A DNA stretch of 52,254 bases from a virus (lineage: Duplodnaviria > Caudoviricetes), in the IMG/VR virus record IMGVR_UViG_3300023184_000171, positions 1 through 52,254 of that record. The stretch is one strand, 5' to 3'. A model generated the notes under the pieces. That model saw only the letters and a program-made list of their open reading frames with translations. It did no database searches and had not been told where the DNA came from. Position numbers and translations under genes: made by a program. Positions 631 through 45,320 of the stretch are shown here, in pieces. Positions within the stretch are counted from its first letter, which is position 1, and each line of letters opens with the position of its first letter.

Positions 631-662
631 GTAAAACTCCTAAAAGTTGTTTAAATGTTACG

Positions 663-2079: not shown

Positions 2080-2090
2080 GATTTATCTCC

Positions 2091-5135: not shown

Positions 5136-5136
5136 G

Positions 5137-5421
5137 TTATTTCCTTAAAGCAGCGTTTGTTTTGGGGTTGTAAGTAAAGGCTGTTGCAGGTTTCCCGGTT
5201 CTTTTAGCAGCCCTGTCTTTCGCACGTTCTTCAGCGGTCATCGCATCCCTAGCAGCGCCGCTTTTAGTGAATGTCTTGCCATCGTCTTTCATCTGCCCCC
5301 GCGCTTGCAGCACCGCTATCGCCGCCGCTTGTGGGTCAGCAGGGGGATTCTTCTGGGTGCGCATCTGCTCCGTCAGCCTATCCAGCAACTGATTCTTACC
5401 CATAAATTTCTGCGTTGCCAT
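5137..5421 (-). CDS. Hypothetical basic protein between terL and portal
   Basis: 94-aa ORF tightly packed between its neighbours. Confidence 0.65.
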   Translation of the reverse strand: MATQKFMGKNQLLDRLTEQMRTQKNPPADPQAAAIAVLQARGQMKDDGKTFTKSGAARDAMTAEERAKDRAAKRTGKPATAFTYNPKTNAALRK

Positions 5422-5429
5422 AAAAACCC

Positions 5430-6899
5430 TTAGTAATACGCCATGCTGCGGCGTGACCGAAACTCTTTTACCGGTGGCGCTTCATCCAGCGCGGTGCCAA
5501 TGAACCCGCCCTGCCTGAACCGTAGCAGAGCTTGTGTAGTTGTATCCACAAAGTCGTCATGCTCCCCCACCGGGAACGCTGCCATCTCTTCAATCACATC
5601 GTGCGCCCAGCGCTCGTCGGGTGCCCACACCCGCCCACTGGCAAACAAGTCAGCCACCGCGTTGACCCGGACTGTCTTGTCGTTACCTCTGCTTGGCGTA
5701 AACTCCTGCACCGGAATCCCGGCTAGGCGTAGCTCTTGAATCAATGGTGCGCCCGCTGCCTTCTTCTCAACAATGAACGCGTCGGGTTTCCAATCCTTGT
5801 AGTGGTCGAGCGCCACTTGCTTTAACTCAGGAAACTCCATCCGGTCTTTGAATGCGTCCAGCAGTATGACGTGCGCTACGTTCTTCTCTTCTTCGTTGAA
5901 CCACACCCCCCACGTTGTGCAAGCGCTATAGTCAGCGGATGTTTTAGCTTCAAACGCGGTGTCCCACGACTGAATCACGAACTGGCACTGGGGTGGGGTG
6001 TCATGAGGCCACACCCGCCACATCTCCCGTTTAATTATGGCGATGTTATCAGAGGTCGGTTCCTGCTGGTATTGAGCGTTCCAGAAGCGCGGCTGAAGCG
6101 TTGCCTTTGTTTTTAGCAACTCTTCAATAGGCCACTTCTCAGGCCATAAAGCTTTGCCTGACGGCAAGATAGCGGGGAGTTCAACTATCTCCCACTGGTC
6201 AGCGTCAGGGTTTTTAGTTTGGTAGTCTAGTAGCTTGGCGGTTAAGTCCAACTGCCCCCACCGCGTCATCACCACAATAATCGAACCGCCCCACATCAAC
6301 CGCTGGCGGGGGCCGGTCTGATACCAACTCCAACCCTGCTCAAACGGGAGCTTAGACCCACTCTTTAAGTCCTGCTCCGAGTGCGGGTCATCTATTACCA
6401 CCAAGTTAGCGCCGCGTCCCGCCAACGCACCCCCCGTGCCGACTGCGTAGTATTTCCCGCCTTGCGCCGTGCTCCACGACCCCGCGCTCTTAGAGTCGGC
6501 GCTGAGTTCTGTGCCGGGAAACACCTCCTTATATTCGGGCGTGGCAATCAAGTTCCGCACCCGGCGTCCAAAATCCTCTGACAAAGACGCGGTATGCGTA
6601 GCCATAATAACTTGGTCGGTGGGCTTATGCCCAAGCCACCACGCTGGCAGGAGGTAGGATGTCAACTCGGATTTGCCGTGGCGCGGGGCGATGTTGATAA
6701 TGATGCGTTTCTTTTTGCCGTCAAGAACATCCTTGAACAGCTTCGCCATTATCTTGTGGTGCCCCCCAACGGAGTAGTTGGGATACAACCTTTTGGCAAA
6801 TTCAATGAGCGATGCTTGTGACGCTGTTACCTCCAGACGTTTAATTTTCTCGTCAAGGAGCGTTAGTAGTTCTTCTTTCTGTTCACGCTGGGCTAGCAT
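5430..6899 (-). CDS. terL: Terminase large subunit
   Basis: Walker A-like APRHGKS, Walker B VVIDDP, coupling motif MTRW, and an RNase H-like nuclease (SWDTA ... HDDFVD). Start reset to ATG at 6899. Confidence 0.95.
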   Translation of the reverse strand: MLAQREQKEELLTLLDEKIKRLEVTASQASLIEFAKRLYPNYSVGGHHKIMAKLFKDVLDGKKKRIIINIAPRHGKSELTSYLLPAWWLGHKPTDQVIMATHTASLSEDFGRRVRNLIATPEYKEVFPGTELSADSKSAGSWSTAQGGKYYAVGTGGALAGRGANLVVIDDPHSEQDLKSGSKLPFEQGWSWYQTGPRQRLMWGGSIIVVMTRWGQLDLTAKLLDYQTKNPDADQWEIVELPAILPSGKALWPEKWPIEELLKTKATLQPRFWNAQYQQEPTSDNIAIIKREMWRVWPHDTPPQCQFVIQSWDTAFEAKTSADYSACTTWGVWFNEEEKNVAHVILLDAFKDRMEFPELKQVALDHYKDWKPDAFIVEKKAAGAPLIQELRLAGIPVQEFTPSRGNDKTVRVNAVADLFASGRVWAPDERWAHDVIEEMAAFPVGEHDDFVDTTTQALLRFRQGGFIGTALDEAPPVKEFRSRRSMAYY

Positions 6900-7512
6900 C
6901 AGCCTCTTCCGGCACAATCTCAACTAGCTCCGGGGGAACATCGTTGGCTTTACCCTCCACGACTTTCATCAAATCCATATACTTATCCATCCGGGTTTGG
7001 ATTTCTTTTTCCAAATCGCCGTCAGACAGCGCGGCTTTTTTAATTTCGATGCGTTCCGTAAACAGCGCCACTTCCGTTACCTTGCCTAGAACCTCGATTG
7101 CGCGGAGGCGTATCTTGGCGTCGGGGTGTTTGGATTCTTCAAGCAGTTGGGCGATACAGTAACCCCGTATCTCTTTAGCTTGTTCTACAAAAGCCCAGTC
7201 ATATGCAGTGAGCATCCCGACAAGATGCTGGACAGCTTTTGGAACCGTAACTTTAGTGAGCGCTTGCTTTTGGGTTTCCGCGTCAAGCGGTATGGTCATC
7301 GCGGCAAAGGCGTCTTGCGCGGATTTCTGTTGGGCGTTGGTGATTGTGGCGTCATCATCGAAGCCGAGGTCTTTTAACCACGCTGCGGTGGTTGTCTTCC
7401 CGTCCACAATATCGGCGGGAGGAGCCGTAGCATCCGCCACGAACTGCGCGTCATTTGATAGCACACTGGGCGCGTAGTCCGCATCTTGAATGCTAATCAG
7501 GTGTTCGAACAT
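6883..7512 (-). CDS. Probable terminase small subunit
   Basis: 209 aa directly upstream of and overlapping terL; helical RLRAIEVLGK...LFTER motif; SD GGAG. Confidence 0.6.
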   Translation of the reverse strand: MFEHLISIQDADYAPSVLSNDAQFVADATAPPADIVDGKTTTAAWLKDLGFDDDATITNAQQKSAQDAFAAMTIPLDAETQKQALTKVTVPKAVQHLVGMLTAYDWAFVEQAKEIRGYCIAQLLEESKHPDAKIRLRAIEVLGKVTEVALFTERIEIKKAALSDGDLEKEIQTRMDKYMDLMKVVEGKANDVPPELVEIVPEEADASPA

Positions 7513-7543
7513 TTAACTCCGCGCTTAATAAGCGAAAAACGGG

Positions 7544-7572
7544 TTTACTCTTTGCCCAATGTAGAATACACT
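7544..7572 (+). promoter_or_regulatory. Sigma70-like promoter for the predicted small RNA
   Basis: TTTACT (7544-7549), a 17-nt spacer, then TACACT (7567-7572). An alternative -10, TAGAAT, lies at 7562-7567. Confidence 0.5.
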
Positions 7573-7574
7573 AC

Positions 7575-7645
7575 AAGCTCCTTCGTTGTGAAGCGCTTTT
7601 TAAGCGCCCTCCAAACAGCCCCACCTCCTCCGGGGCTGTTTTTTT
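7575..7645 (+). ncRNA. Predicted trans-acting antisense small RNA against phage ribosome-binding sites
   Basis: Bounded by a promoter and a terminator. The 5' seed at 7577-7594 is complementary to the RBS regions of several plus-strand genes. Internal hairpin GCGCTT/AAGCGC (7593-7607) and three CTCC-containing anti-SD motifs. Confidence 0.6.
7613..7645 (+). terminator. Intrinsic terminator
   Basis: AAACAGCCCC-ACCTCCTCC-GGGGCTGTTT stem followed by a T-tract. Confidence 0.75.
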
Positions 7646-7861
7646 GTCTACTTATGTATAAGATTAGACAAGGGGGCTGAAATCCGTATTTAAATCCCTA
7701 GATGTAAAAAATTAGACATTAGACCTCTATTTTTGGCAATATGGTTCAAGAATAGTGTTCCCGCCAAGCTGCCTCGCCGCCCCGCCAAAAGGGTTGCCCC
7801 GCCCCCGGTGGGGTTCCGCTACCCCGTTGCGGGGCTAATGGGGAGTTACCAAAACGTGTTA

Positions 7862-7870
7862 TGGTATAAT
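7862..7870 (+). promoter_or_regulatory. Extended -10 promoter for the early operon
   Basis: Perfect TGnTATAAT (TGGTATAAT) about 80 nt upstream of the first plus-strand gene. Confidence 0.65.
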
Positions 7871-7952
7871 GTAGTTGTCGAATTGCTTCACGCCGTGGGG
7901 CAGCGACGCAGTAGGTGTGCATCACACACCTATCCACAAAAAGGAAATACAA

Positions 7953-8342
7953 ATGAACAAACAGCAAAGCAATTGGGTCACGATGCTCGGCAATTTGATT
8001 GCCGCCAAGAAAGACCACGCCGTGGCGTTGCGCGGGTTGCTCGCGCACCACGACAACAAACGGACGCTTGCGTTGGTGCAAGACATCGTGACGGGCTTGC
8101 GCATCGCGTTCCCGCAGACGGACGCTTGTGAGGGGGTTTACGCCGGGCAACCGACGGTAAGCTTCCCGAAAAAGGGAAGCGGGTTCCAGTTCTACCGCGA
8201 CGAGATTGCGGGGCTGTTGCCGAAGCTGCGCAAGAGCACGTCGTCGAAGCGCAACACCGTTGACCCCGTCGAAGCCGCTATCAAACGGCTTCGCAGCAGC
8301 TTCACCACCGCGCAGCTTCGCCGTATTGCCGCCGCGTTGTAA
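7953..8342 (+). CDS. Early hypothetical protein
   Basis: ATG at 7953 with SD AAGGA; 129 aa (MNKQQSNW...). Confidence 0.7.
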   Translation: MNKQQSNWVTMLGNLIAAKKDHAVALRGLLAHHDNKRTLALVQDIVTGLRIAFPQTDACEGVYAGQPTVSFPKKGSGFQFYRDEIAGLLPKLRKSTSSKRNTVDPVEAAIKRLRSSFTTAQLRRIAAAL

Positions 8343-8464
8343 TCGGCGGCTTCAAAGTTAGGTGTGTTCGGCACACCTAATTGTTAGACATTTTTCCACG
8401 GGCGTTGCTCGTGGGCGCGATGGGGGCGGCGCTATTCTGCCCCCGCTTGTTTTGGAGAAACACA

Positions 8465-8644
8465 ATGAGGTTCGGGATGTATCACGCAGAGACGGGCGCA
8501 CACCGTGAAGCGACTTGCTTCACACAGGCGCTCGATATGTGGCAGAACGCGCCACGCAGCGCGGGCACATGGGTGCTCGTTGTAGACGAGGTTGAGGTGG
8601 ATTCGGCGTATACCGCCGAGACGCCCAACAAGTGGGGCGAGTAG
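8465..8644 (+). CDS. Early hypothetical protein
   Basis: ATG at 8465 with SD GGAG; 59 aa. Confidence 0.6.
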   Translation: MRFGMYHAETGAHREATCFTQALDMWQNAPRSAGTWVLVVDEVEVDSAYTAETPNKWGE

Positions 8645-8741
8645 TCCCGCACTCGTGCGCCGTGACAGGGCGCACTGTGGGCGCGATTGCCCGTAACCTT
8701 AGGTGTGCATCACACACCTAATCACAGAGAGGAACAGCAGT

Positions 8742-9014
8742 ATGAAAAGGTACAAGCAACTCTTAGAGGACTACTACGCTGCGCTGGCGTGGCTGCACCT
8801 CGACTTCGCTGCGGGGGTAGACGACAACCTCGCATACATGAACACCCTCGTCGAGCGGGTGGGGGAATTGGAGTTGACGGATGACGAGTTGGACAGGCTC
8901 GACATGGCGTGGTCTATCAGCGAAAAGCTGAATGACTACTGGGATTTTGACATGGCGCTCTACCATATCGAATACATAGTCAGTTACCGTAACCACCTGA
9001 AAGGAACAGCATGA
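8742..9014 (+). CDS. Early acidic hypothetical protein
   Basis: ATG at 8742 with SD GAGG; 90 aa, D/E-rich. Confidence 0.65.
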   Translation: MKRYKQLLEDYYAALAWLHLDFAAGVDDNLAYMNTLVERVGELELTDDELDRLDMAWSISEKLNDYWDFDMALYHIEYIVSYRNHLKGTA

Positions 9015-9166
9015 AAGCAAAAGCTTGCACCACAACCGCGCCCCGATTCTGGGCATTACTCGTAGAGGTGAAAGCCTCTATGAACCCCGCGCTTAAGAAC
9101 GCGGAGATACCGCAACGAACCACGCTCACCGCACTACAGCGCCACCACGCCGCGAGGCGCACATGA
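9011..9166 (+). CDS. Small hypothetical protein
   Basis: ATGA overlaps at both ends, SD AAGGA; 51 aa (MKAKACTT...). Confidence 0.5.
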   Translation: MKAKACTTTAPRFWALLVEVKASMNPALKNAEIPQRTTLTALQRHHAARRT

Positions 9167-9303
9167 AATCTCTGATGCTAATTAGCTTCACGGGTTGGGC
9201 GGGTCTCTCGCTCAGCTTCCTCATACCAGAGGGCATGTGGCTGTGGCTTGCCATCTTCGGGGCATCCTGCTTCGGCCTATCGGCGGCGGTGATATTGGAC
9301 TAG
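9163..9303 (+). CDS. Small two-TM membrane protein
   Basis: MKSLMLISFTGWAGLSLSFLIPEGMWLWLAIFGASCFGLSAAVILD; ATGA-coupled, SD GAGG. Confidence 0.55.
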   Translation: MKSLMLISFTGWAGLSLSFLIPEGMWLWLAIFGASCFGLSAAVILD

Positions 9304-9451
9304 CACAACTCGCTGACAATCTGTCAGCGAGTTACCTGCACTGCGGCGTGGCACGACTCCTCACCCCCACGCCGCAGCAGTTAGGTGTGCTGTTCACACC
9401 TAACTAATTAGGTGTGCTGTTCACACCTAATCGTGAGTTACCATAACTCAC

Positions 9452-9840
9452 TACCAAAAAGGTCAATTGGACAATAGTCCACTATGTCCGGCATTTTTAG
9501 GGGTAGATGGGCGTAACTTTGTTCAATCAAATCAGGTAAGTCAGCGTCCACCTGTCCGGGATGCCCACATATATATATCCTTTTCCTTTTCTATATATAT
9601 AAGCAGCAACAAGTGGACGCTGGACTTGTCTCTCGCTTTGTCTTTTTCTTTTTCTTTGTTCCTTGGAAGTTAAAAAGACAAAAAACACGTAGACAGTGGA
9701 GACGCACACGCGCTAACCCCATGATGTTGTATACTGTATGCCCTGTCCACGAGCACACAGATTTGCCGGACTATTTCGTAATAAGTGGACTATTTTAGTT
9801 TTCCACGCCCCATTTCCCGGCATTTAGGTGGACTATTTTC
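9452..9840. other. Candidate replication origin or other cis-acting non-coding region
   Basis: AT-rich core (about 9568-9690) with (AT)n and T-tracts; GGACTATTT at 9768, 9787 and 9830 with an inverted copy at 9473; several GTCCAC/GTGGAC hexamers. Confidence 0.45.
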
Positions 9841-9859
9841 GTTACGGAGGGATAAAGCC

Positions 9860-10390
9860 ATGAACAAATACTGCCACACCTGCAAGAAAACCAAGCTGTT
9901 TAGGTGCTTCCGCTACACCTCGCAGCAGACACCCAACGCCGTGCCGCGCCGTCTATTCGGGCGTATGTGCAACGCTTGCCGCACCGCAGCGCTACTCAAA
10001 GACGAGCGCAAGCTGGAGACCGCCATCCAACGCGGCGAGGTTGGGCACGTTCAAGGAACGCTACTCTTGCAGAAGATGCGCTCCGAGGCTGCAACCCGCA
10101 AAGCCGAGTATCGGGCGCAGCAAGTTGAGCGGGCACTGGAGACGCATCGGCTGGGGCGTTACCTGACCCGTGAGTGCAACCTGCACAAACGCTCAACGGC
10201 TGAACTACGCGCAGCATACGAACTCGACCCCGCCGAGGCGCAAGCATACGAGGCGCACTACGCCGTGAAGCTGGCAGAGGGCAAGGATAAGTATGCGCGG
10301 CTCAAGGCGCGGGTAGCTAAGGGTGACCGCAAAGCCATCATCCTCTACGCCAGCCTAGACAGGGGGGAGGGAACGGTCACCCCGCGCTAA
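9860..10390 (+). CDS. Zinc-ribbon (CxxC...CxxC) basic protein
   Basis: SD GGAGG; CHTC...CNAC N-terminal motif; R/K-rich helical remainder. Confidence 0.65.
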   Translation: MNKYCHTCKKTKLFRCFRYTSQQTPNAVPRRLFGRMCNACRTAALLKDERKLETAIQRGEVGHVQGTLLLQKMRSEAATRKAEYRAQQVERALETHRLGRYLTRECNLHKRSTAELRAAYELDPAEAQAYEAHYAVKLAEGKDKYARLKARVAKGDRKAIILYASLDRGEGTVTPR

Positions 10391-10549
10391 CCACGCACGA
10401 CTCACCCCCCGCATTAGGTGTGCGCTTCACACCTAATTAGGTGTGCGTTTCACACCTAAACCAAACTTGCTGACATTTTGTCAGCGAGTTACTTGCTGAC
10501 ATTTTGTCAGCGAGTTATAGCACTACGTTTCACAACAAAGGAGAACCAC

Positions 10550-10750
10550 ATGAAGACGAAGAAAGTAAACCTGCGCACCATCCTCCGCGTGTCGGCCACC
10601 AACACCAAGTTTGGCTTGGTCAAGCGCATTGCCTACGTGCAAGGCAGCAACAAGAACGAGGCGCACTTCATCCACACCAGCAACGCCGACAACACCTGCA
10701 TCACTATCAAGCGCATCCCGAAGTGGCGCAACGCAAGCATCTATAACTAA
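10550..10750 (+). CDS. Small basic hypothetical protein
   Basis: ATG at 10550 with SD AAGGAG; 66 aa. Confidence 0.65.
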   Translation: MKTKKVNLRTILRVSATNTKFGLVKRIAYVQGSNKNEAHFIHTSNADNTCITIKRIPKWRNASIYN

Positions 10751-10760
10751 GGAGAAACAC

Positions 10761-11123
10761 ATGGACAAGATATCGAACTCGGTAGGGAAGGAAATCGCGG
10801 GGGTCACGCTGCTTGACAGCAGGTTGCACTTCGTCTTCACGGACAAGACGGAGATATACGTGGTTGATGACGGGCAGTCTTGTTGCGAGATGCGTTACAT
10901 GACCACGGACGACGAGTTGGATTCGTTTGTTGGGGCAAAGCTCCTTGGGCTGGAGGTTAAGGACGCGCCGTATGCGAAGGCAAGGTGTGAGGATGATGTG
11001 CATCAGGTGCAGTTCCTTGAAATACAGACGAACAAGGGTGTGTTCACGATGGCAAACCACAACGAACACAACGGGTGTTACGGTGGGTTTTACATTACGG
11101 TAGAGGAGAAACGACATGAGTAA
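10761..11123 (+). CDS. Conserved-type phage hypothetical protein (SCCE...HNEHNG.YGG)
   Basis: SD AAGGAG; the QSCCE.RYM and NHNEHNGCYGGF motifs recall a widespread phage family. Confidence 0.7.
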   Translation: MDKISNSVGKEIAGVTLLDSRLHFVFTDKTEIYVVDDGQSCCEMRYMTTDDELDSFVGAKLLGLEVKDAPYAKARCEDDVHQVQFLEIQTNKGVFTMANHNEHNGCYGGFYITVEEKRHE

Positions 11124-11574
11124 TAAATTGGACTGGACGAAGACGAATGCCGTGTGGAATGGCGAGGACTGGCTGTTCTACGAGGTGCCGCTGGAGGCTT
11201 GCCCTAACTGGGGCGGCACAACCTGCTTCAGTCGAAGTGAGTTGAACTACGAGGGTGACGACCCCGTTAAGGCGGTGGTTGCGCTGAGGTATTGGTGTGA
11301 CCACGGGGAGTCGCAGCCCAGTGAGGACTACCTTGACACTAGCGTTTTTGAGTTGCCGCTACTAAGCGACAGGTCTTCGCGCTTGGACAAGAGGGTGCTG
11401 TTGCGTAGTGCCGACATGATTGTAGTAGATTTTTGGTATGTGATGGGCATCAGCAGCACCTACTACGGCACCAAGATGCAAGCAGAAGTGGAGGCGCGTA
11501 AAGCGTTTCCAAATGAGGATGCGGGTAAGCGGTATGCCCGTGTGTTTTATAAAACGTTTTATCAGGAGGTATGA
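11116..11574 (+). CDS. Hypothetical protein
   Basis: 152-aa ORF with SD GAGGAG, overlapping the previous gene. Confidence 0.6.
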   Translation: MSNKLDWTKTNAVWNGEDWLFYEVPLEACPNWGGTTCFSRSELNYEGDDPVKAVVALRYWCDHGESQPSEDYLDTSVFELPLLSDRSSRLDKRVLLRSADMIVVDFWYVMGISSTYYGTKMQAEVEARKAFPNEDAGKRYARVFYKTFYQEV

Positions 11575-15698: not shown

Positions 15699-15732
15699 TA
15701 CCAAAAAACAATTCACAACAAGGAGCATCACA

Positions 15733-16851
15733 ATGCAAGCACCTATGCTGTCGCATAAGCAAGTCTATTCACTCATCAAAGCGGTGGGTAGGAAGAGAAC
15801 GGTCATCGTGCAGGGGGAGACGGGCGTTGGTAAAACGTCCATCCAGATGGAGTTTATGCGTGACCCCGACTTTGCCAACCACCACGTTCGCCGCCCGTTG
15901 GAATGCACCCAGATGTCCGATGGTTCAGTATGGATGCCCGACATTGACCGAGAGTTGGGCGTGTCCCGCGAGTTGCCCAACGAGCGCTTCCACATCAACA
16001 CCAAGAACCGCAAGGGTGTGGACGGTTCCAAGCCGGTAGTCATCTGTCTGGATGAAGTGTTTAAGGCAACCAACCCGGTCAAGTGCATGATTTCCCCTGT
16101 GCTATATGAGCGCACCGTGGGTGACTATGAAGCCCCGGATGGCAGCATCGTGTGGGGTGCCACTAACCTAGCGGCTGAAGGGTTGGGGGACTCCCTCAAG
16201 ATGCACCTGCGCACACGCATGAAGATTGTAACCATGCGCAAGCCCACTCAGCCTGAATGGGCGAACGACTTCGCCATCCCCAACGGCCTACACCCTGCCG
16301 TTATCGCAGCCACCGCGCTGCATCCCGAGTGGTTCGACTCGTTCATGGACTACGAGCCGGGGGGTAAGCATGAGGGCAAGACGCTGGCTAAGGAGAATCC
16401 CTGCATCAACAACCCGCGCTTGGCACAGGAGGGCATCGTCAGCCCGCGCACACTGCACTCAGCCAGTGACTCGCTGCATGAGGCGCACAACATGGACAAG
16501 GAAACCCTGTTGGCTGACTTGTGTGGCACGGTGGGGGTTACGGCAGGGCAGATAGTTATGTCGGTCATGCGTCTGGGTAACGACATACCCGCACCGGAGC
16601 GTGTGTTTGCCGACCCTGACAACACACCGCTCTCTAACAATGCCAGTGCGCAAGCATTGCAGGTGTTCCAGTTGTTTAACCGCGCCACCACACGCGACGA
16701 TATGGCGGCTGTCGTGCGGTATGTTCGCCGGATGCGCACCGAGATGCAGACCATCTTTCGCCATAGCGTCGAGCATTCAGTTAAGAACCCTGTGTTCTCC
16801 ACCATCGCTGAGTTTCAGGTGATGTTGCAGGACGCTAGGTTGTTCGTATAA
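15733..16851 (+). CDS. MoxR-type AAA+ ATPase
   Basis: Walker A GETGVGKT, Walker B ICLDE, sensor ATN and SPRT; adjacent to a vWA gene. Confidence 0.85.
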   Translation: MQAPMLSHKQVYSLIKAVGRKRTVIVQGETGVGKTSIQMEFMRDPDFANHHVRRPLECTQMSDGSVWMPDIDRELGVSRELPNERFHINTKNRKGVDGSKPVVICLDEVFKATNPVKCMISPVLYERTVGDYEAPDGSIVWGATNLAAEGLGDSLKMHLRTRMKIVTMRKPTQPEWANDFAIPNGLHPAVIAATALHPEWFDSFMDYEPGGKHEGKTLAKENPCINNPRLAQEGIVSPRTLHSASDSLHEAHNMDKETLLADLCGTVGVTAGQIVMSVMRLGNDIPAPERVFADPDNTPLSNNASAQALQVFQLFNRATTRDDMAAVVRYVRRMRTEMQTIFRHSVEHSVKNPVFSTIAEFQVMLQDARLFV

Positions 16852-16857
16852 GGAGGC

Positions 16858-18030
16858 ATGATGATTCCAAACCATACGTGGGAGGTAATGACGTTGCAGC
16901 AGAGGGTGTCGGCTTGTAACAGCGACATCATTGAGCATCCAGAGTTTGGGCGGTTGACGGGCATCGTGTTCATGGGCGAGGTCATCATCGACCCCGCTTG
17001 CCCCACCGCCGCAACGAATGGGCGCGACGTGCGCTACGGAGAGAAGTTCTGTAGCAAGCTGAACCAGAAGCAACTGCGCTACGTTGACCTGCATGAGAAC
17101 TTGCACAAAGGCTTGCGGCACTGCGTCTTATACAAAGCTATCGTGGAGAAGTATCCAGACGAGTCTAACCGTGCGCAGGACTACGTAATCAACGGGATGA
17201 TTGAGGAAGTTGACCCGGCGTTTCAGTTCGTTGAGCGCCCGTGTGCTGTGCTGGTGGATGTTAAGTATCAGGGCATGGGGTTCATAGAGGTGTTGAAAGA
17301 CCTGATAGCTAACCCACCGCCACCCAACGGTGGGGGCAGCACGTTGGATGAGCATGAGCCGATGGATGAAGCCCCTGAGTTGGGCGACGAGATAGAAGAC
17401 GCGCTACGTCAAGGCAAGATTGTGTCTGACCGCATACGGGGGGAAGCTGGCGAGAGCGGTGCGTTGGATGTGCTGCTGCGCCCACGTAGCACGGCGTGGC
17501 GAGAAGCTATGCTGGAGTTCATGCAGTCTGTGTGTGACGGGGATGAGTTGAGCCGCATCTGTCCCCCGAACAAGCGCTTGCTACCTTCCGGGTTCTTGAT
17601 GTGGTCGCATTACTCAGAGGCGGTGGGGGAAGTAGTCATCGCGGCGGACACATCAGGGTCGATGCGCGGCGTGTATCCGGTAGTGTTCGGAGAGATATCG
17701 CACATATGCCAGACGTTGATGCCTGAGTCAGTGCGGGTTATCTGGTGGGACAGTCAGGTTCGTGGCGAGCAGGTGTTCACGCCTGATAACTATGAGGCGA
17801 TAGGTAGTTTAATGAAACCAGAAGGTGGTGGTGGCACTCGCGTGTCTACTGTTGCCGACTACATACAGGAGAAACAATATGCACCGATAGCAGTGATATA
17901 CCTGACAGATGGATACATCGAGTCTGAATACCGCACCCCTGCACTGCCGATACTGTGGGGGGTTGTAGACAACACACGGTTTGTGCCGCGTGTTGGTAAG
18001 AAAATAGACATTTGCAGCTTCACAATCTAG
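16858..18030 (+). CDS. Metallopeptidase-like plus vWA domain protein (DUF2201-like)
   Basis: TAATNG and HENLH (HExxH) in the N-terminal half; MIDAS DTSGS, GGGGT and LTDG in the C-terminal half. Confidence 0.85.
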   Translation: MMIPNHTWEVMTLQQRVSACNSDIIEHPEFGRLTGIVFMGEVIIDPACPTAATNGRDVRYGEKFCSKLNQKQLRYVDLHENLHKGLRHCVLYKAIVEKYPDESNRAQDYVINGMIEEVDPAFQFVERPCAVLVDVKYQGMGFIEVLKDLIANPPPPNGGGSTLDEHEPMDEAPELGDEIEDALRQGKIVSDRIRGEAGESGALDVLLRPRSTAWREAMLEFMQSVCDGDELSRICPPNKRLLPSGFLMWSHYSEAVGEVVIAADTSGSMRGVYPVVFGEISHICQTLMPESVRVIWWDSQVRGEQVFTPDNYEAIGSLMKPEGGGGTRVSTVADYIQEKQYAPIAVIYLTDGYIESEYRTPALPILWGVVDNTRFVPRVGKKIDICSFTI

Positions 18031-18041
18031 GAGATATAAAA

Positions 18042-18950
18042 ATGCAGCACTACAATATTGATACATGCGCGATGCTGGTGGAAGTTAATGCGTCCGTGTG
18101 GACTGCTCGTAAGCTTGACCGAGCCACAACGGATGAAGTCATTACCAGCAAGAATGCCGCGTCCAAGGGTGCGGCGCGGGTCAACAAGCACTTGCTGGCG
18201 GGTCGCCCTGAGTTGGAGGTGATCATCACGCACGTTGGCGGTGTGCGGGGCTACGTGTATGAGAACACGCTGCCGTGGTCAGACAGCGGTTTGCGCTTGC
18301 TGCCGGTGGTTAAGTTTCAAGAGTTCAACACGCGCATGAAGGTAGAGGAAGATAAGTATTGGGAGCTATGTAAGTCTTTCGTGGACGTATACCCCTCGTT
18401 GATTACAGCCCAAGCGTTGCAGTTGGGGGATATGTTCAAGCGCGAGGACTTCCCCAGTGCGGACACTATCCTGCACAAGTTCGGGTTTCAGGTGAACTAC
18501 ATGCCTGTGCCCACTGCGGGGGACTTCCGTGTAGACATCGGCAATGAGGCACAAGCTGAGCTTAAAGCCCAGTTGGTCAAGCTGGCTGACGAGCGGCTAA
18601 CGTCTGCGATGGATGACATCAAAGGCAAGCTTAAAGCCCACCTTGTCCATATGTCCGGGCGGTTGGCTGTGGACATTGTAGATAACGTGCCGAAGGTGCG
18701 GGGGTTTCACGACTCATTGATTGAGTATGGCTTCGACCTGTGCGACATGGTGAAGAGCTTGAATCTTACCCAAGATGTAGAACTGGAGGATGCACGGGCG
18801 GCACTTGAGCGGTGCTTGGGGGGCATAACTACGCGCACTAACAAGCGGGGGCGGGAGTTGACCGTAGCGGATACGCTGCGCGAGGATATGGGCAAGCGCA
18901 GCGCAGTGAAGGCGCAGGTGGATGAGATTCTTAACAAGTTCACATGGTAA
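18042..18950 (+). CDS. MoxR/vWA-associated protein (DUF3150-like)
   Basis: ATG at 18042 with SD AGGAG; WTARKLD, TLPWSDSG.RLLP and NLT.D..LE motifs; third gene of the AAA-vWA cluster. Confidence 0.6.
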   Translation: MQHYNIDTCAMLVEVNASVWTARKLDRATTDEVITSKNAASKGAARVNKHLLAGRPELEVIITHVGGVRGYVYENTLPWSDSGLRLLPVVKFQEFNTRMKVEEDKYWELCKSFVDVYPSLITAQALQLGDMFKREDFPSADTILHKFGFQVNYMPVPTAGDFRVDIGNEAQAELKAQLVKLADERLTSAMDDIKGKLKAHLVHMSGRLAVDIVDNVPKVRGFHDSLIEYGFDLCDMVKSLNLTQDVELEDARAALERCLGGITTRTNKRGRELTVADTLREDMGKRSAVKAQVDEILNKFTW

Positions 18951-19645: not shown

Positions 19646-19911
19646 ACGATACGCCAAGGACGGACATTCGGCATTGCGAAGCGTGTGGGCAGGTAAAGTT
19701 TCCAAGTGATCATTGGCAACGCCAACTCGCCGCCGCACAAGCCGAGATTGCAGCACTGCGGACGGATGCGGAACGGCTTGACTGGCTTGATACTGTTGAC
19801 TGCGGTATTAACCATATAGGTTACGGAGAATACAGAGATTATATTGGGCGTGGATTTATAAAAAAGATACGCGAAGTGGTTGACGCGGCGATGAAGGAGT
19901 GCGGGAAATGA
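19642..19911 (+). CDS. Hypothetical cassette protein
   Basis: MNDTPRTD...DAERLDWL...DAAMKECGK; start and stop both lie inside the junction repeats. Confidence 0.65.
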   Translation: MNDTPRTDIRHCEACGQVKFPSDHWQRQLAAAQAEIAALRTDAERLDWLDTVDCGINHIGYGEYRDYIGRGFIKKIREVVDAAMKECGK

Positions 19912-26181: not shown

Positions 26182-26194
26182 CAACGGAGAACGT

Positions 26195-28996: not shown

Positions 28997-29029
28997 CTTT
29001 TACTTGCAGTAAACACAACGAGGATAAAA

Positions 29030-29434
29030 ATGACAACAGAAGATTTAGTTCCTATGGACAGGCTTGCGAAAATCTATCTCAAGATTCGCACGAGTGTTCA
29101 GCTACTCACGCAAGACTACGAAAAACAAAAGGCCGCTTTGGAAGCGCAGAAGTCTGAGGTAGCTAATGCCATGCGCGACCAGATGAAAGCGTTGGGTTCC
29201 AAGTCGGTTAAGACAGAGTATGGAACGGTCATGCTGGGCGTAAAGACTCGCTACACCACGCAGGACTGGGATTCGTTTAAAGATTTTTGCATCAAGAACA
29301 ACACGATTGACCTCCTTGAGCGGCGCATTGCTCAACGGAATATGGCGAAGTGGCTGGAGGAGAATCCCGAAGATGTTCCACCGGGGTTGAACTCTGATTC
29401 TGAGTATGAAGTGACTGTTAGAAAACCTAGTTAA
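29030..29434 (+). CDS. Replication-module hypothetical protein
   Basis: 134 aa; N-terminal coiled coil; KTEYGTV...DWDSF...LLERR...PPGL. Confidence 0.75.
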   Translation: MTTEDLVPMDRLAKIYLKIRTSVQLLTQDYEKQKAALEAQKSEVANAMRDQMKALGSKSVKTEYGTVMLGVKTRYTTQDWDSFKDFCIKNNTIDLLERRIAQRNMAKWLEENPEDVPPGLNSDSEYEVTVRKPS

Positions 29435-30873: not shown

Positions 30874-30893
30874 TCCCACAACGAAGGGTTACT

Positions 30894-33812
30894 ATGACAC
30901 CGCTGGAATTCATAGCGGCTGTAGTGCCGTCGGCGGGGGTTTTGTGCGTCGCGGAACTAAGCTCAAAGAAAAAAGAACACGTATTCGTAGACAAGGTTGA
31001 AGACCTTGGCATTCACATAGCACGTTTCATCGCAGAAAAACGGGATACCTATTTCGCATTAGCAAGCTTTACGGAAAGCGGTAACCGCACTGCGCCCAAC
31101 GCGCTATACATGAAGTCGCTGTTTGTTGACATCGACTGTGGTGGAGGCAAGCCGTATTTAACAAAGCAAGCTGCCGCAACCGCGTTAGATACGTTCTTGC
31201 AGGAGACGAAGTTTGGCGCAATGGGCAACCCTTGGGTTGTCACGTCAGGCGGGGGGCTGCACGTCTACTGGCCTTTCACCGAAGACATACTTATCGCGCA
31301 GTGGCGTTCTGTCGCTGAGAACTTCAAGCGCCTGTGCAAGAAGCACTCGCTTCATATCGACTTTACTGTAACCGCCGATGCAGCGCGGGTGCTGCGTGTG
31401 CCTGACTCCTTCAACTGGAAGATTAAGGGCAAGCCCCGCAAGGCCAAGCTTATGGTGGAGGGCGGCACCTTTGTGTTTGCAGATGTAGCAGCAGCACTCA
31501 AGGTGCAGATTAACGGAGAGGCTGTAGCTGAACCGATATTCAACCCTGCGTCCATTCCCGGCATTCGCCCCAAACGCCAAACCGCATCGCAGGTCAAGCT
31601 GATCGAGAACAGCATCACGCGGTTCAAGACCATCATGCTGCGCACGGAAGGAGGTTCTGGGTGCTTGCAGTTGCGCCACTACGTAGAGAACGCAAAGCAG
31701 GAGGGTATGGAACCCCTGTGGCGTGGGCTGCTGTCGATAGCGCAGAAGTGCGTGGACGTTACCAAGGCTGCGAAGTGGCTGTCAGGATTGCACCCCTACG
31801 ACGAAAGCCGTATGGAGCAGAAGCTGCGCGAGATTAAGGGGCCATACTCCTGCGTCAAACTGGATGGCGAGAACCCCGGCTTGTGCGAGAAATGCCCGAA
31901 CTGGGGCAAGATCACCAACCCCCTCGCACTGGGGCGGGAGCTAGCAACGGACAACACCACCAAAGAAATCACGCTGCTGCCTGAGAGTAGCTCATCTGGT
32001 GAGCCAGTGCGTCCTAGCCAAATCAAAGTAACGCGCCCCACACCACCACGCGGCTTCTCTTACGGTAAGAACGGAGGCGTGTATCGTGAGATGGAAGTGG
32101 AGGACGAGAGTAAGAACGTTATTAAGAAACAAGTTTTGGTATTACCGTATGACTTGTTTGTTGTAGACCTGCTGAACGTCAACAAAGAACATTACGTGTT
32201 CATGCTGGCTACGCGCCCTGAAGGGCCAGTGCAGATATCCCTCCAGCAGAAAGCCGTAGTCAGTAAAGACGATACCGTTAAAGCGCTGGCAGCACAGAAC
32301 ATCGTGGCGGCGTATGGCTCTGGCAACGATAAGAACCTGTTTGATTACGTCAGGGCGTGTGTGGAGGCGGTATCTTCCAACAAGAACGCCATCAACGTGC
32401 CTAACAGCTATGGCTGGCAACCGGACGGCGGCTTTGTGGCGGGGGGTAAGATATTCATGCCCGACCAGACTGTTCGCCAGATACCCATGCCGGGGTTAGA
32501 GAACCTTACCCACGCCACCACACCAAAAGGAACGTTGGAGACATGGCGTAAGTATCCCGAAATGCTGATTGCGAAGGGGCTATACGACGTGCTGGCGATT
32601 GGCTGCGGGGTAGGGTTTGGCTCCCCGCTGATGGAGTTCACGGGACTGGACGGCCTAACCTTCCACGCTGGCTCAACGGAGTCAGGCACCGGCAAGACCG
32701 TAGCGCTGGAGTTGGCGGCGTCTATCTGGGGGCACCCTCGTGACTACCGCGTAGGCAAGAGCACCTCTGCGGTAGCCATGCAGCAACGGGCGGGGCTGCT
32801 ACGGAACCTGCCGCTGTTGAGCGATGAGATAACCAGTAAGAACAGGCGCGATGCAGAGTGGTTTCCTGAGTTCGTGTTTGACCTGTCTGAAGGCCGCGCT
32901 AAAGAGCGTATGGAGTCAGGGGCGAACAAGGAACGGCTGAACACCTCAGTCTGGTCGCTGATGGCGGTGCTGTCATCCAACACCCACATGATGGACTACC
33001 TGACCGGTGGGCGTAAGCACTCCTCTGAGGGTGAGATGCGCCGGATGCTGGAGTGGGTTACTAACGAGACGCTCTCGTGGGAGGTGCATGAGGTCGAGGT
33101 TATAAAGACCCTACGCTACCACCACGGCACCGCTGGCGATGTTTACGCGCAGTGGCTGACCCTCAACCGCAGCACGGCTATGGCGGTCTACCAGAGTGTT
33201 TACCAGCGCATCAGGGCTGAGTTCAAGATGACCAACGACGAGCGCTACTGGCACGCTGGCGTGGCGTGTTGTGTGGCGGGGTGCATCCTAGCGGGGTCGA
33301 AATACTCCAACGTGGTAAACCTCCCGATTCAGCACATTATCATCAGCCTGAAAGTCATTGTGGAGAAAGCCCGTCAGACGGTTCGCTCCAACGTGCGCAC
33401 GGCTGAAGATATCCTGAACGCCTACATCCGTGAGTTCTATGGCAAGTTCATCGTAGTCCGCGCTATTGACGGGGCGATACAGGCTACCTTTGGCGAGGCG
33501 GGGACGGTAGATGAATCCATCACACGCACCCAGATTTCAGGGCGGGTGGAACGGAACATAACACCGGGCTACGTAAACTTCTTTATAGAAGAGGGGCTAC
33601 TGAAATCCTACTGTTCCAGCATGAGCTTCGGGTATGCCGACTTCCGTAAGCAGATGGAGAAGTTGCACCGTGTTGAGTACGTTAAAAAGGACATGTTGTC
33701 TAAGACCAAAGGCCCACAGATGCGGGTCAATGCGATAAAGATCAGCCGTCCTGAGTCACCCCTGCTTGAACCCGATGCCGAAAAAGATACGGATATACTA
33801 CCCGTGGAATGA
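30894..33812 (+). CDS. Primase-helicase (RepB/AEP-like primase plus DUF927-like region and P-loop helicase)
   Basis: FVDID, SGGGLHVYW and DAARVLRVP primase motifs; Cys cluster; YGWQ; SGTGKT Walker A and LSDE Walker B. Confidence 0.85.
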   Translation: MTPLEFIAAVVPSAGVLCVAELSSKKKEHVFVDKVEDLGIHIARFIAEKRDTYFALASFTESGNRTAPNALYMKSLFVDIDCGGGKPYLTKQAAATALDTFLQETKFGAMGNPWVVTSGGGLHVYWPFTEDILIAQWRSVAENFKRLCKKHSLHIDFTVTADAARVLRVPDSFNWKIKGKPRKAKLMVEGGTFVFADVAAALKVQINGEAVAEPIFNPASIPGIRPKRQTASQVKLIENSITRFKTIMLRTEGGSGCLQLRHYVENAKQEGMEPLWRGLLSIAQKCVDVTKAAKWLSGLHPYDESRMEQKLREIKGPYSCVKLDGENPGLCEKCPNWGKITNPLALGRELATDNTTKEITLLPESSSSGEPVRPSQIKVTRPTPPRGFSYGKNGGVYREMEVEDESKNVIKKQVLVLPYDLFVVDLLNVNKEHYVFMLATRPEGPVQISLQQKAVVSKDDTVKALAAQNIVAAYGSGNDKNLFDYVRACVEAVSSNKNAINVPNSYGWQPDGGFVAGGKIFMPDQTVRQIPMPGLENLTHATTPKGTLETWRKYPEMLIAKGLYDVLAIGCGVGFGSPLMEFTGLDGLTFHAGSTESGTGKTVALELAASIWGHPRDYRVGKSTSAVAMQQRAGLLRNLPLLSDEITSKNRRDAEWFPEFVFDLSEGRAKERMESGANKERLNTSVWSLMAVLSSNTHMMDYLTGGRKHSSEGEMRRMLEWVTNETLSWEVHEVEVIKTLRYHHGTAGDVYAQWLTLNRSTAMAVYQSVYQRIRAEFKMTNDERYWHAGVACCVAGCILAGSKYSNVVNLPIQHIIISLKVIVEKARQTVRSNVRTAEDILNAYIREFYGKFIVVRAIDGAIQATFGEAGTVDESITRTQISGRVERNITPGYVNFFIEEGLLKSYCSSMSFGYADFRKQMEKLHRVEYVKKDMLSKTKGPQMRVNAIKISRPESPLLEPDAEKDTDILPVE

Positions 33813-45319: not shown

Positions 45320-45320
45320 A

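What the first reader, a model, noticed from the sequence alone, without database searches (positions are those of the whole stretch)
7544..7645. Candidate phage small RNA whose 5' seed is antisense to the ribosome-binding sites of many early and replication genes
Seen in the sequence: a promoter (TTTACT-N17-TACACT) and an intrinsic terminator (7613-7645) bracket a ~70-nt non-coding unit. Its 5' part, GCTCCTTCGTTGTGAAGC (7577-7594), has the reverse complement GCTTCACAACGAAGGAGC. Near-copies of that sequence overlap the SD of distant plus-strand genes: TTCACAACAAAGGAG at 10529-10543 (14/15; gene 10550); TTCACAAC-AAGGAGC at 15712-15726 (one gap; MoxR ATPase); GCTTCACAATCTAGGAG at 18017-18033 (14/17; gene 18042); ACAACGGAG at 24177-24185 (DNA polymerase) and 26181-26189 (HExxH gene); CACAACGA-GGA at 29014-29024 (gene 29030); CACAACGAAGG at 30877-30887 (11/11; primase-helicase); and a weaker CACAAAAAGGA at 7935. 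The match extends well beyond the SD (the CACAAC part), so it is not just generic SD complementarity. Established knowledge: P1/P7 c4 and P4 CI RNAs are trans-acting phage antisense regulators. Inference: one RNA placed at the early/late divergence represses translation of a replication regulon, acting as an early-to-late switch or as RNA-based immunity or dormancy control.
Basis: partly seen in the sequence, partly recalled or inferred. Interest (0 to 1): 0.92.

Follow-up and report, generated by a model that had tools for sequence, protein, structure and literature searches.

The report
Phage small RNA pairing with early-gene ribosome sites
An uncultured freshwater phage and its relatives carry a conserved gene for a roughly 70-base RNA whose free end is complementary to the ribosome-binding site of a conserved phage ATPase gene, and the RNA and that site have changed together across lineages, which points to RNA-based control of phage protein synthesis.

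Summary
At 7544-7645 a sigma70-like promoter (TTTACT 7544-7549, N17, TACACT 7567-7572) and an intrinsic terminator (7613-7645) bracket a unit of about 68 nt. It folds into an unpaired 5' end, one hairpin, a CCUCC linker and the terminator. The same unit sits beside the putative small-terminase gene in every relative examined. The core CUCCUUCGUUGU is invariant or nearly so in 18 distinct close variants, while the stems change compensatorily. G:U pairs occur only on the plus strand (19 versus 0 of 43 terminators). The seed pairs at -20 kcal/mol or better with 6 of 57 start regions, all on the early-gene strand; no flank-shuffled control reaches 6 (0 of 400). The strongest evidence is comparative. 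In 13 lineages with different seeds, each unit pairs best with its own genome's ATPase leader (0 of 50,000 permutations; controls not significant). Only the ATPase target is conserved. A wider regulon, repression as the outcome, and a switch or immunity role remain inferred. No RNA data exist. I call it a new variant of a known kind: a trans-acting phage antisense RNA.

The parts
7544..7549 (+). -35-like hexamer TTTACT of the small-RNA promoter
   Evidence: Read. The matching position in relatives keeps a -35-like TT-hexamer (TTTACT, TTTACG, TTTGCT, TTGCAG, TTGCGT, TTGACA) at 16-18 nt from the -10, while the spacer sequence varies. A strict promoter rule is met in 30 of 69 distinct units against 7.5 expected.
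7567..7572 (+). -10 hexamer TACACT of the small-RNA promoter. It overlaps a -10-like TATTCT (7568-7563) on the minus strand
   Evidence: In relatives this region is palindromic (AGTATACT, AGTGTACACT), which gives a -10 on both strands.
7577..7594 (+). Unpaired 5' seed GCUCCUUCGUUGUGAAGC. The predicted start is near 7577-7580, inferred from the -10 position
   Evidence: The first 18 nt are unpaired in the minimum-energy and centroid folds. C6, C8-T10 and C12-T17 are invariant in 18 distinct variants whose mean column identity is 57%.
7593..7607 (+). Stem-loop 1 (GCGCUU / AAGCGC)
   Evidence: Relatives keep the helix with other sequences (ACGCCU/AGGCGU, GUGCC/GGCAC, GCGUCU/AGACGC). L016 and L018 have a G:U pair on this strand only.
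7608..7612 (+). Single-stranded CCUCC linker, a second anti-SD-like motif
7613..7645 (+). Intrinsic terminator: a 10-bp stem, a loop ACCUCCUCC and a U7 tail (7639-7645)
   Evidence: Among 43 distinct terminators in relatives, the single non-Watson-Crick pair is G:U on this strand in 19 and A:C in 0. The T-run follows the hairpin on the plus strand only.
15712..15735 (+). Conserved predicted target: the leader, SD and start codon of the AAA+ ATPase gene (15733-16851)
   Evidence: Duplex energy is -23.0 kcal/mol. Orthologues in L221, G004 and G005 (53-64% amino-acid identity) carry ACAACGAAGGAG or AtAACGAAGGAG with unrelated flanks. The swap test over 13 seed types gives 0 of 50,000 permutations. 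The protein matches phrog_1297 ATPase at E 7e-29.
10529..10552 (+). Predicted target: start region of a 66-aa gene (10550-10750)
   Evidence: -23.0 kcal/mol. No homologue was found in the relatives compared.
18017..18044 (+). Predicted target: start region of a 302-aa gene (18042-18950)
   Evidence: -22.9 kcal/mol. Orthologues in L221, G004 and G005 are not predicted targets, at about -13 kcal/mol.
30877..30896 (+). Predicted target: start region of the DUF927 primase-helicase-like gene (30894-33812)
   Evidence: -21.1 kcal/mol. Pfam DUF927 at E 6e-22.
19884..19910 (+). Its twin lies at 20183-20209
   Evidence: -20.3 kcal/mol each, using G:U pairs. The leaders of 19908, 20207 and 20452 are near-identical.
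29014..29032 (+). Weaker predicted target: start region of a 134-aa gene (29030-29434)
   Evidence: -15.6 kcal/mol. The orthologue G004_6930 carries the exact 12-mer (-22.6). The B-group orthologues pair with the B-type seed at -18 and -18.9.
7563..7592 (-). Divergent promoter-like site TTCACA-N18-TATTCT, facing the putative small-terminase gene
   Evidence: This was the only sigma70-like hit of the consensus scan in 7000-8500. A comparable site exists in relatives, for example TTCACA-N16-TATAAT in L018. Its function is inferred.
6883..7512 (-). First gene of the leftward packaging module: 209 aa, a putative small terminase directly upstream of the large-terminase gene (5430-6923). It is the synteny anchor of the unit
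   Evidence: phrog_38 for the neighbouring large terminase. 274 relatives were found in IMG/VR, of which the best 80 were kept. The small-terminase label rests on position only; no family matched.

Best explanation
The region 7544-7645 is the gene for a trans-acting small RNA of about 68 nt.

Proposed mechanism:
- Host-type RNA polymerase starts at a sigma70-like promoter that is back-to-back with the packaging-operon promoter. It stops at a strong intrinsic terminator.
- The RNA has an unstructured 5' end (CUCCUUCGUUGUGAAGC), one hairpin, a CCUCC linker and a terminator hairpin whose loop also carries CCUCC.
- The 5' end pairs with the Shine-Dalgarno sequence plus the 6-10 nucleotides upstream of it. 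The main partner is the mRNA of a conserved phage AAA+ ATPase, the first gene of an ATPase / VWA-like pair. In this phage it also pairs with several other early-gene start regions.
- This pairing covers the ribosome-binding site and so lowers translation, and possibly mRNA stability.

What is shown here:
- The gene architecture and its conservation.
- The strand of the structured RNA.
- The excess of complementarity to start regions.
- Co-variation of the seed with the ATPase leader.

What is inferred:
- That the RNA is transcribed.
- The exact 5' end.
- That pairing represses rather than activates.
- The timing and the biological purpose.
For: 1. Conserved architecture.
- All 71 related loci with at least 250 nt upstream of the putative small-terminase gene show a unit of promoter-like hexamers, a CU-rich single strand, hairpins and a T-run on the strand opposite that gene.
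- So do the 32 loci that hold both that gene and the ATPase.
- Of 79 distinct units, 69 pass a strict terminator rule. 67 of those 69 carry CTCC, TTCC or CCTT within 75 nt before the terminator.

2. Conservation pattern typical of a small RNA.
- The seed is invariant or nearly so in 18 distinct A-group variants, while both stems change with compensation.

3. Strand of the RNA.
- 19 of 43 distinct terminators have a G:U pair on the plus strand and 0 have A:C.
- The 5' hairpin of the B group needs four G:U pairs that would be A:C mismatches on the other strand.
- The T-run is on the plus strand only.

4. Fold.
- The first 18 nt are unpaired; z-score -3.7.

5. Excess pairing in the window.
- 6 of 57 start regions pair at -20 kcal/mol or better, all on the early strand. 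0 of 400 flank-shuffled seeds and 0 of 50 pseudo-seeds reach 6.

6. Recurrence in relatives.
- The exact 12-mer ACAACGAAGGAG occurs at 3 gene starts in G004 and at 1 in G005.
- L221 has 2 exact and 2 one-mismatch copies at gene starts within 11.4 kb.

7. Reciprocal specificity between groups (the window's A-type seed against the B-type seed, number of early-strand start regions at -18 kcal/mol or better).
- A-group genomes: 6, 5 and 7 hits for the A-type seed against 1, 2 and 3 for the B-type seed. G004's own seed variant gives 9.
- B-group genomes: 5, 7 and 5 hits for the B-type seed against 0, 1 and 1 for the A-type seed.
- Own-seed hits on late-strand start regions number 0-2 per genome.

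8. Conserved target.
- ATPase orthologues (53-64% identical) keep the 12-mer leader in 4 of 4 A-group genomes, with unrelated flanks.

9. Co-variation.
- A search of each of 56 ATPase loci for the reverse complement of its own ATPase leader, followed by a terminator, landed 40-125 nt from the start of the putative small-terminase gene in 13 of the 32 loci that hold both genes. The seeds differ between lineages, for example UCUCCUUGAGUUG with CAACUCAAGGAa, UUUUCCUUUAG with CUuAAAGGAAAA, and CCUUUCAAGUG with CACUUGAAAGa.
- Swap test over 13 seed types: own pairs average -17.16 kcal/mol against -12.27 +/- 0.78 for permuted pairs, with 0 of 50,000 permutations as low.
- Controls are not significant: reversed leader p = 0.23, reverse-complement p = 0.94, complement p = 0.55.
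- The next gene's start region gives p = 0.36, where the ATPase gives p = 1.6e-4 in the same 9 lineages.
Against: - No transcript evidence exists. No RNA run holds this DNA, and the host is uncultured.
- The genome-wide count at -18 kcal/mol is not beyond the controls in the window (21 against a control maximum of 24) or in G004 (22 against a mean of 16.4). G005 shows no enrichment (13 against 20.1).
- The lineage of G005, L021 and L026 has CACCUU in place of CUCCUU. That puts a mismatch into the SD pairing. Its own seed reaches -18 kcal/mol on only 2 of 71 start regions.
- L215, L218 and L219 (seed CUCCUCCGUUGU) show no matching start region in the 2.7-4.6 kb of early DNA available.
- In several lineages (L251/252/256, L259, L261, L266-type) pairing with the ATPase leader does not go beyond the SD. 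The own leader ranks 5th to 9th of 13 in four of the 13 types.
- Apart from the ATPase, the window's predicted targets are not kept as targets in relatives.
- The strict promoter rule is met by only 30 of 69 units. The B group's -35 matches TTGACA in only 3 of 6 positions.
- The lineages are related, so permutation p-values overstate independence.
- A DNA-binding protein that recognises the same asymmetric site at both places would also give co-varying sites.
Confidence: 0.68

Rival explanations
1. The unit is a by-product of a bidirectional promoter. The palindromic -10 of the packaging-operon promoter also fires rightward. The terminator only insulates the early region from this stray transcription. 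The short RNA has no function of its own, and its likeness to early leaders reflects a shared, favoured leader sequence.
For: - The -10 region is palindromic in relatives, and both strands carry promoter-like sites.
- CA-rich leaders upstream of the SD are common in this phage group, also where no extended pairing exists.
- The genome-wide energy scan is not beyond the controls.
Against: - A by-product would not keep 12 nt invariant while the promoter hexamers and stems vary.
- It would not keep extra hairpins with strand-specific G:U pairs.
- It would not change its single-stranded segment in step with the ATPase leader of the same genome.
- The motif's minus-strand reading is not followed by a conserved ORF: 5 of 18 variants.
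Confidence: 0.12
2. The conserved 12-mer is a DNA or RNA site for a phage-encoded protein, a transcription regulator or a translational repressor. The protein binds both at the divergent promoter and at the ATPase leader. The two sites co-vary because the protein's specificity drifts.
For: - The motif lies in the -35/spacer region of the minus-strand promoter-like site.
- Co-variation of two sites within a genome does not by itself tell RNA-RNA pairing from a shared protein.
Against: - At genes, the motif always has the same orientation and a fixed distance to the start codon, and it includes the SD. This fits an RNA-level role.
- In the unit, the motif sits in the predicted single-stranded part of a structured, terminated RNA on the opposite strand.
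- In the B group the motif lies upstream of the minus-strand -35 instead of in the spacer. Its place in the promoter is therefore not kept, whereas its place in the RNA's single strand is.
Confidence: 0.1
3. The unit is a leader plus terminator (attenuator) for rightward early transcription, as in promoter-proximal terminators read through by an antiterminator. The short RNA is the terminated form.
For: - The early genes lie downstream on the same strand.
- A strong promoter followed closely by a terminator resembles the lambda PR'-tR' arrangement, whose short 6S RNA is mentioned in passages of bioRxiv 10.1101/2024.10.31.621285.
Against: - A separate promoter-like element follows the terminator in the window and in relatives. 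In the window there is TGGTATAAT near 7860. In relatives there is TGTATAAT-ATTAGACAAG or TTGACA directly after the T-run.
- This model does not predict complementarity to a start region 8 kb away, or its co-variation.
- No antiterminator was identified. That question was not searched beyond the family scans.
Confidence: 0.07
4. The motif on the minus strand is the ribosome-binding site of a small leader peptide (GTG, 8 codons, 7571-7545) that precedes the putative small-terminase gene.
For: In the window, GGAG is followed after 6 nt by GTG and an 8-codon frame.
Against: - The 8-codon ORF is present in 5 of 18 distinct variants, absent in 11, and replaced by an unrelated frame in 2.
- In the B group an ATG follows the motif in most members but not all, and the frame is not kept.
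Confidence: 0.03

Closest known systems
c4 antisense RNA of phages P1 and P7 (immI region)
   Same: Both are phage-encoded, trans-acting antisense RNAs that block expression of phage genes by pairing with a site on the phage's own mRNA. Passages of PMC8198154 state that full repression of ant needs the C4 antisense RNA, and they mention a C4 binding site. From my own recall of Citron and Schuster 1990 (seen only as a reference in that paper), RNA and target differ together between P1 and P7.
   Different: - c4 is cut out of the same operon transcript that it controls, and it serves lysogenic immunity. The unit here has its own promoter and terminator.
- This unit sits at the junction of the packaging and early modules, and its conserved target lies about 8 kb away.
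- It centres on an anti-SD motif.
- No repressor or integrase gene turned up in the proteins scanned. The window was not searched exhaustively.
- There is no sequence or Rfam match.
C-rich anti-SD small RNAs of bacteria (RsaE/RoxS of Firmicutes, 6C of mycobacteria)
   Same: Both use short C/U-rich motifs in single strands or loops that pair with G-rich SD regions of several mRNAs. The abstracts of PMC6158497 and PMC6486639 were seen in the listing.
   Different: - Those RNAs are chromosomal and regulate metabolism. This one is phage-borne.
- Its main motif is at the 5' end and is extended by a lineage-specific flank that gives target specificity.
- There is no Rfam hit to those families.
Phage-encoded trans-acting sRNAs PreS (lambda) and VpdS (vibriophage)
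   Same: All are small RNAs made by a phage that act by base pairing through an unpaired seed. According to passages of bioRxiv 10.1101/2024.10.31.621285, VpdS regulates both host and phage mRNAs.
   Different: - PreS acts mainly on host genes (dnaN, alaS).
- Both of those RNAs come from temperate phages of cultured hosts and were found by experiment.
- This unit is predicted from sequence alone, and its conserved partner is a phage gene. Host targets could not be examined because the host is unknown.
Cis-antisense RNAs OOP (lambda) and sar (P22)
   Same: Both are short, terminated phage RNAs that pair with a phage mRNA. OOP is described in passages of the same preprint. sar is from my own recall.
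   Different: Those RNAs are transcribed opposite their target and are fully complementary to it. Here the predicted start lies about 20 bp from the divergent promoter's predicted start, so the two transcripts would not overlap. The targets lie elsewhere.

Membership tests
Trans-acting base-pairing small RNA (generic bacterial/phage class) | Own promoter and Rho-independent terminator bracketing a non-coding unit of 50-300 nt | tested here: met
   Promoter-like hexamers and the terminator were read. A strict terminator rule is met in 69 of 79 distinct units, and a strict promoter rule in 30 of 69 against 7.5 expected. No conserved ORF exists on either strand.
Trans-acting base-pairing small RNA (generic bacterial/phage class) | Conserved single-stranded seed with structured, co-varying remainder | tested here: met
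   G:U pairs on the plus strand number 19, against 0 A:C.
Trans-acting base-pairing small RNA (generic bacterial/phage class) | Seed and target co-vary between relatives | tested here: met
   Swap test: 0 of 50,000 permutations over 13 seed types. Sequence controls give p = 0.23-0.94. The neighbouring-gene control gives p = 0.36.
Trans-acting base-pairing small RNA (generic bacterial/phage class) | The RNA is made, and it changes target expression | not testable with these tools
   No RNA holder was listed for this DNA, and the host is unknown.
P1/P7 c4-type immunity RNA | Encoded in, and processed from, the operon it controls; part of a lysogeny immunity region | tested here: not met
   The unit has its own promoter and terminator. 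The conserved target is 8 kb away in another transcription context. No repressor or integrase matched among the 20 proteins scanned.
Cis-antisense RNA (OOP / sar type) | Transcribed from the strand opposite its target, overlapping it | tested here: not met
   The targets lie at 10.5-31 kb on the same strand. The predicted divergent starts do not overlap. This is inferred from promoter positions.
Any Rfam family | Score at or above the family's gathering threshold | tested here: not met
   0 matches in the whole window on both strands.
Promoter-proximal terminator read by an antiterminator (lambda PR'-tR' type) | The downstream operon depends on read-through, and an antiterminator is encoded | tested here: inconclusive
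   Separate promoter-like elements follow the terminator. No antiterminator was recognised in the proteins scanned, but most early proteins have no family.

The most novel reading that the evidence does not exclude
The RNA and the ATPase leader form lineage-specific lock-and-key pairs. At least 13 seed types were seen. A phage's RNA would then silence the early genes of a co-infecting or superinfecting relative that shares its seed type, but not those of others. That would be RNA-based exclusion or competition between virulent-looking freshwater phages, comparable to heteroimmunity groups but without lysogeny. The several CCUCC motifs could in addition dampen SD-led translation of host mRNAs.
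Probability: 0.12. Interest if true: 0.85.

Novelty: new variant of a known kind. Interest (0 to 1): 0.7.

Why it matters
Few regulatory RNAs of phages are known, and most come from temperate phages of laboratory hosts. A passage of bioRxiv 10.1101/2024.10.31.621285 says that very few had been described.

This case is a whole family in abundant, uncultured freshwater phages, whose large terminase is about 50% identical to those of pelagiphages HTVC027P and HTVC023P.
- It has a fixed genomic address.
- It has a readable seed.
- Its partner gene is supported by changes on both sides.

That gives a concrete, falsifiable RNA-target pair for reporter assays. It also gives a seed alignment for a new RNA family model. 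And it suggests that dosage of the phage ATPase / VWA-like module is controlled at the level of translation.

My three literature searches found no description of this element. The searched library does not cover most subscription journals.

Tried and rejected
Steps that led nowhere or were rejected:
- Rfam at gathering thresholds over the whole window: no match.
- DNA search of cultured phages with 6800-8400: no match.
- Protein search of cultured phages with the 209-aa putative small terminase: no match.
- The large terminase finds only relatives at 54% identity or less. The one neighbourhood I opened, phage DSL-LC04, has a different gene order upstream of its large-terminase gene, and I did not pursue it.
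- Sequencing runs: no RNA holder was listed for 5500-11500. This says nothing about expression.
- The exact scan CTCCTYCGTTGTGAAGCG found only the 9 contigs already known.
- Comparing free-folding energy between the two strands does not separate them in the A group; the G-rich minus strand often folds better. I replaced it with the count of G:U against A:C pairs.
- RNAalifold on the MAFFT alignment recovered only 7 pairs because the stems are misaligned. Per-sequence folds were used instead. No covariance model was built.
- The control using the start region of the putative small-terminase gene gave p = 0.022. I reject it as flawed: the 105-nt unit window overlaps the opposite strand of that leader in short intergenic regions, and several start coordinates were imprecise.
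- The next-gene control could be built for only 9 of 13 lineages.
- The minus-strand mini-ORF and a plus-strand ORF through the unit are rejected.
- Supplementary files of papers were not consulted.
- Structure prediction, complex prediction and the large protein searches were not used, because the question is about RNA.
Full report
**Context**

The window is a 52,254-bp linear IMG/VR virus record, estimated 82% complete. Its genes fall into three blocks:
- Genes 16-7512 run leftward. They include the large terminase at 5430-6923 (phrog_38) and a 209-aa gene at 6883-7512. By position this is a putative small terminase; no family matched it.
- Genes 7953-33972 run rightward. They include an AAA+ ATPase, a VWA-like DUF2201 protein, a family-A DNA polymerase and a DUF927 primase-helicase-like protein.
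- Genes 33953-51965 run leftward again.

The finding lies in the 440-bp divergent gap 7513-7952.

No cultured phage matches the DNA or the 209-aa protein. The large terminase is at most 54% identical to those of phage 023Pt_psg01, Pelagibacter phages HTVC027P and HTVC023P, and lake phage DSL-LC04. DNA runs that hold parts of the window are labelled lake, freshwater and drinking-water metagenomes. None is an RNA run.

**The observation**

All listed features are present:
- TTTACT at 7544-7549, a 17-nt spacer, TACACT at 7567-7572.
- The 18-mer GCTCCTTCGTTGTGAAGC at 7577-7594.
- A hairpin at 7593-7607.
- A terminator hairpin at 7613-7641 with T7 at 7639-7645.

Folded as RNA, 7575-7645 has 18 unpaired 5' nucleotides, stem-loop 1, a CCUCC linker and the terminator. 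The energy is -24 kcal/mol, z = -3.7, and 0 of 200 shuffles fold as well.

TTCACAA occurs 8 times in the window, and 5 of those are followed within 3-6 nt by GGAG. Four of the five are plus-strand gene starts. The fifth is the reverse strand of the unit.

**Is the complementarity more than an SD effect?**

I compared the seed with 57 start regions (-35 to +6). Six pair at -20 kcal/mol or better: genes 10550, 15733, 18042, 30894, 19908 and 20207. All six are on the rightward strand.
- Keeping AAGCTCCTT and shuffling the other 11 nt 400 times gave a mean of 0.7 such sites, and never 6.
- The mean of the five best energies was -22.1, against -18.0 +/- 1.1. One of 400 shuffles was as low.
- Reverse complements of 50 other leaders used as pseudo-seeds never reached 6.

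A looser genome-wide count at -18 kcal/mol over every AAGGAG-like core was not beyond its controls in the window, G004 or G005. It did exceed them in G003, and it was near the control maximum in G001. I report this as a result against a broad regulon.

**Relatives**

The 209-aa protein has 274 relatives in IMG/VR, of which the best 80 were fetched. In all 71 with enough upstream DNA the gap holds the same kind of unit on the strand opposite that gene.

The close A group has 18 distinct sequences whose 209-aa proteins are 61-92% identical to the window's.
- C.CCU.CGUUGU is invariant, while mean column identity is 57%.
- Stem-loop 1 and the terminator keep their helices with different sequences.

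The B group (about 50% identity) has another layout: a 5' hairpin, the single strand UCUCCUU, a second hairpin and the terminator. Variants replace both hairpins yet keep the single strand.

**Which strand is functional?**
- In 43 distinct terminators the one non-Watson-Crick pair is G:U on the plus strand in 19 and A:C in 0. A further 18 are perfect, 5 have another mismatch and 1 has no hairpin by my rule.
- The B-group 5' hairpin has four G:U pairs.
- The T-run follows the hairpin only on the plus strand.
- The minus-strand 8-codon ORF is present in only 5 of 18 variants.

The structured RNA is therefore the plus-strand one.

**Promoters**

The plus-strand -35 and -10 keep their spacing while the spacer varies. 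Some lineages have near-consensus sites, for example TTGACA-N17-TATTCT in L239. A strict rule is met by 30 of 69 units against 7.5 expected.

The -10 region is palindromic, and a leftward promoter-like site overlaps it (TTCACA-N18-TATTCT in the window). The RNA gene and the packaging operon may therefore share a bidirectional promoter. This is inference.

**Targets in relatives**

- The exact 12-mer ACAACGAAGGAG stands at three gene starts in G004 and at one in G005.
- L221 has two exact and two one-mismatch copies at gene starts within 11.4 kb.
- Start regions of A-group genomes favour A-type seeds. The window's seed gives 6, 5 and 7 hits at -18 kcal/mol or better, against 1, 2 and 3 for the B seed; G004's own seed variant gives 9.
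- Start regions of B-group genomes favour the B seed: 5, 7 and 5 hits against 0, 1 and 1.
- Late-strand start regions are rarely hit.

Exceptions:
- G005, L021 and L026 carry CACCUU, and their own seed scores poorly (2 of 71).
- L215, L218 and L219 show no target in the short early stretch available.

**A conserved partner**

Among the window's predicted targets, only the ATPase leader is kept in all four A-group genomes. The flanks around it are unrelated. I therefore fetched 56 ATPase loci and read their leaders.

Searching each locus for the reverse complement of its own leader, followed by a terminator, hit the gap next to the putative small-terminase gene in 13 of the 32 loci that hold both genes. 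It revealed new seed types that match their own leaders. These include cases where the SD itself differs: AAAGGAAAA with UUUUCCUUU, and GAAAGACG with CCUUUCAAGUG. Three further flagged hits lay elsewhere (L250, L259, L261).

A swap test formalises this.
- With one representative of each of 13 seed types, own unit-leader pairs average -17.16 kcal/mol against -12.27 +/- 0.78 for permuted pairs. None of 50,000 permutations is as low.
- The own leader ranks first in 6 of 13 and in the top three in 9 of 13.
- Reversed, reverse-complemented and complemented leaders give p = 0.23, 0.94 and 0.55.
- The start region of the next gene gives p = 0.36, where the ATPase gives 1.6e-4 in the same 9 lineages.

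Lineages are related, so these p-values overstate independence. Several seed types differ at many positions, though, and the controls share the same relatedness.

**Mechanism**

The most likely reading is a trans-acting small RNA whose 5' end covers the SD and upstream leader of the ATPase mRNA. In this phage it also covers some other early start regions, and so limits their translation.

Repression is inferred from the position of the pairing. Timing and purpose are open.

The CCUCC linker and the CCUCC in the terminator loop (12 of 18 A-group variants) may add general affinity for SD sequences. By my recollection the loop resembles the 3' end of 16S rRNA; I did not test this.

**Comparison and novelty**

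The closest known system in logic is the c4 RNA of P1 and P7 (passages of PMC8198154). However, that RNA is processed from the operon it controls and serves lysogenic immunity.

C-rich anti-SD RNAs such as RsaE and 6C are chromosomal (listing and abstracts). PreS and VpdS are phage small RNAs found by experiment in temperate phages (passages).

Nothing in Rfam matches. My three literature searches found no description of this element.

I rate it a new variant of a known kind.

Noticed in passing
window 7646-7730; also L003, L024, L027, L249 directly after their terminators: Directly after the terminator lies TGTATAAGATTAGACAAG, followed by two more TTAGAC copies (AATTAGACATTAGACC). Relatives keep TGTATAAT/TATAAC-ATTAGACAAG at the same place. 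This looks like a -10 element plus a repeated operator-like word for the rightward early promoter.
   Followed up: partly
window 7760-7840; similar stretch in L225 after its unit: A G+C-rich stretch (CCCGCC..., GGGTTGCCCCGCCCCCGGTGGGG, CCCCGTTGCGGGG) lies in the otherwise A+T-rich gap. It is partly shared with L225 (…GCCAAGCTGCC…CCCCG.CAAAAGGGTTG). Its function is unknown.
   Followed up: no
window 7912-7946 and 8700-8734: A 35-nt leader is repeated at 89% identity in front of two early genes (7953 and 8742). It consists of the hairpin GGTGTGcatCACACC followed by a CACA-rich SD region.
   Followed up: no
window 7563-7592 (-) and relatives: The -10 region is palindromic (AGTATACT or AGTGTACACT in relatives), so promoter-like sites face both ways and share their -10. 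The packaging operon and the small RNA may compete for the same polymerase-binding site.
   Followed up: partly
window 19899-20637: Three small tandem paralogous genes (starts at 19908, 20207 and 20452) have near-identical leaders, GAAGGAGTGCGGGAAATGAG. Two of them pair with the seed through G:U pairs.
   Followed up: partly
window 7522-7535: A conserved hairpin CGCTTAATAAGCG lies immediately before the SD of the 209-aa gene (on the minus-strand mRNA). It is kept with compensatory loop and stem changes in most A-group relatives, but it is absent in L016 and L018.
   Followed up: no
window 15733-18950: The conserved target opens a three-gene block: an AAA+ ATPase (phrog_1297), a DUF2201 VWA-like / putative metallopeptidase protein, and a 302-aa protein with no family. 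This MoxR/VWA-like pair is kept across this phage group, and its role is unknown.
   Followed up: partly
window 33953-42556 (-): A very large 2867-aa open reading frame lies in the leftward block. It was not analysed.
   Followed up: no
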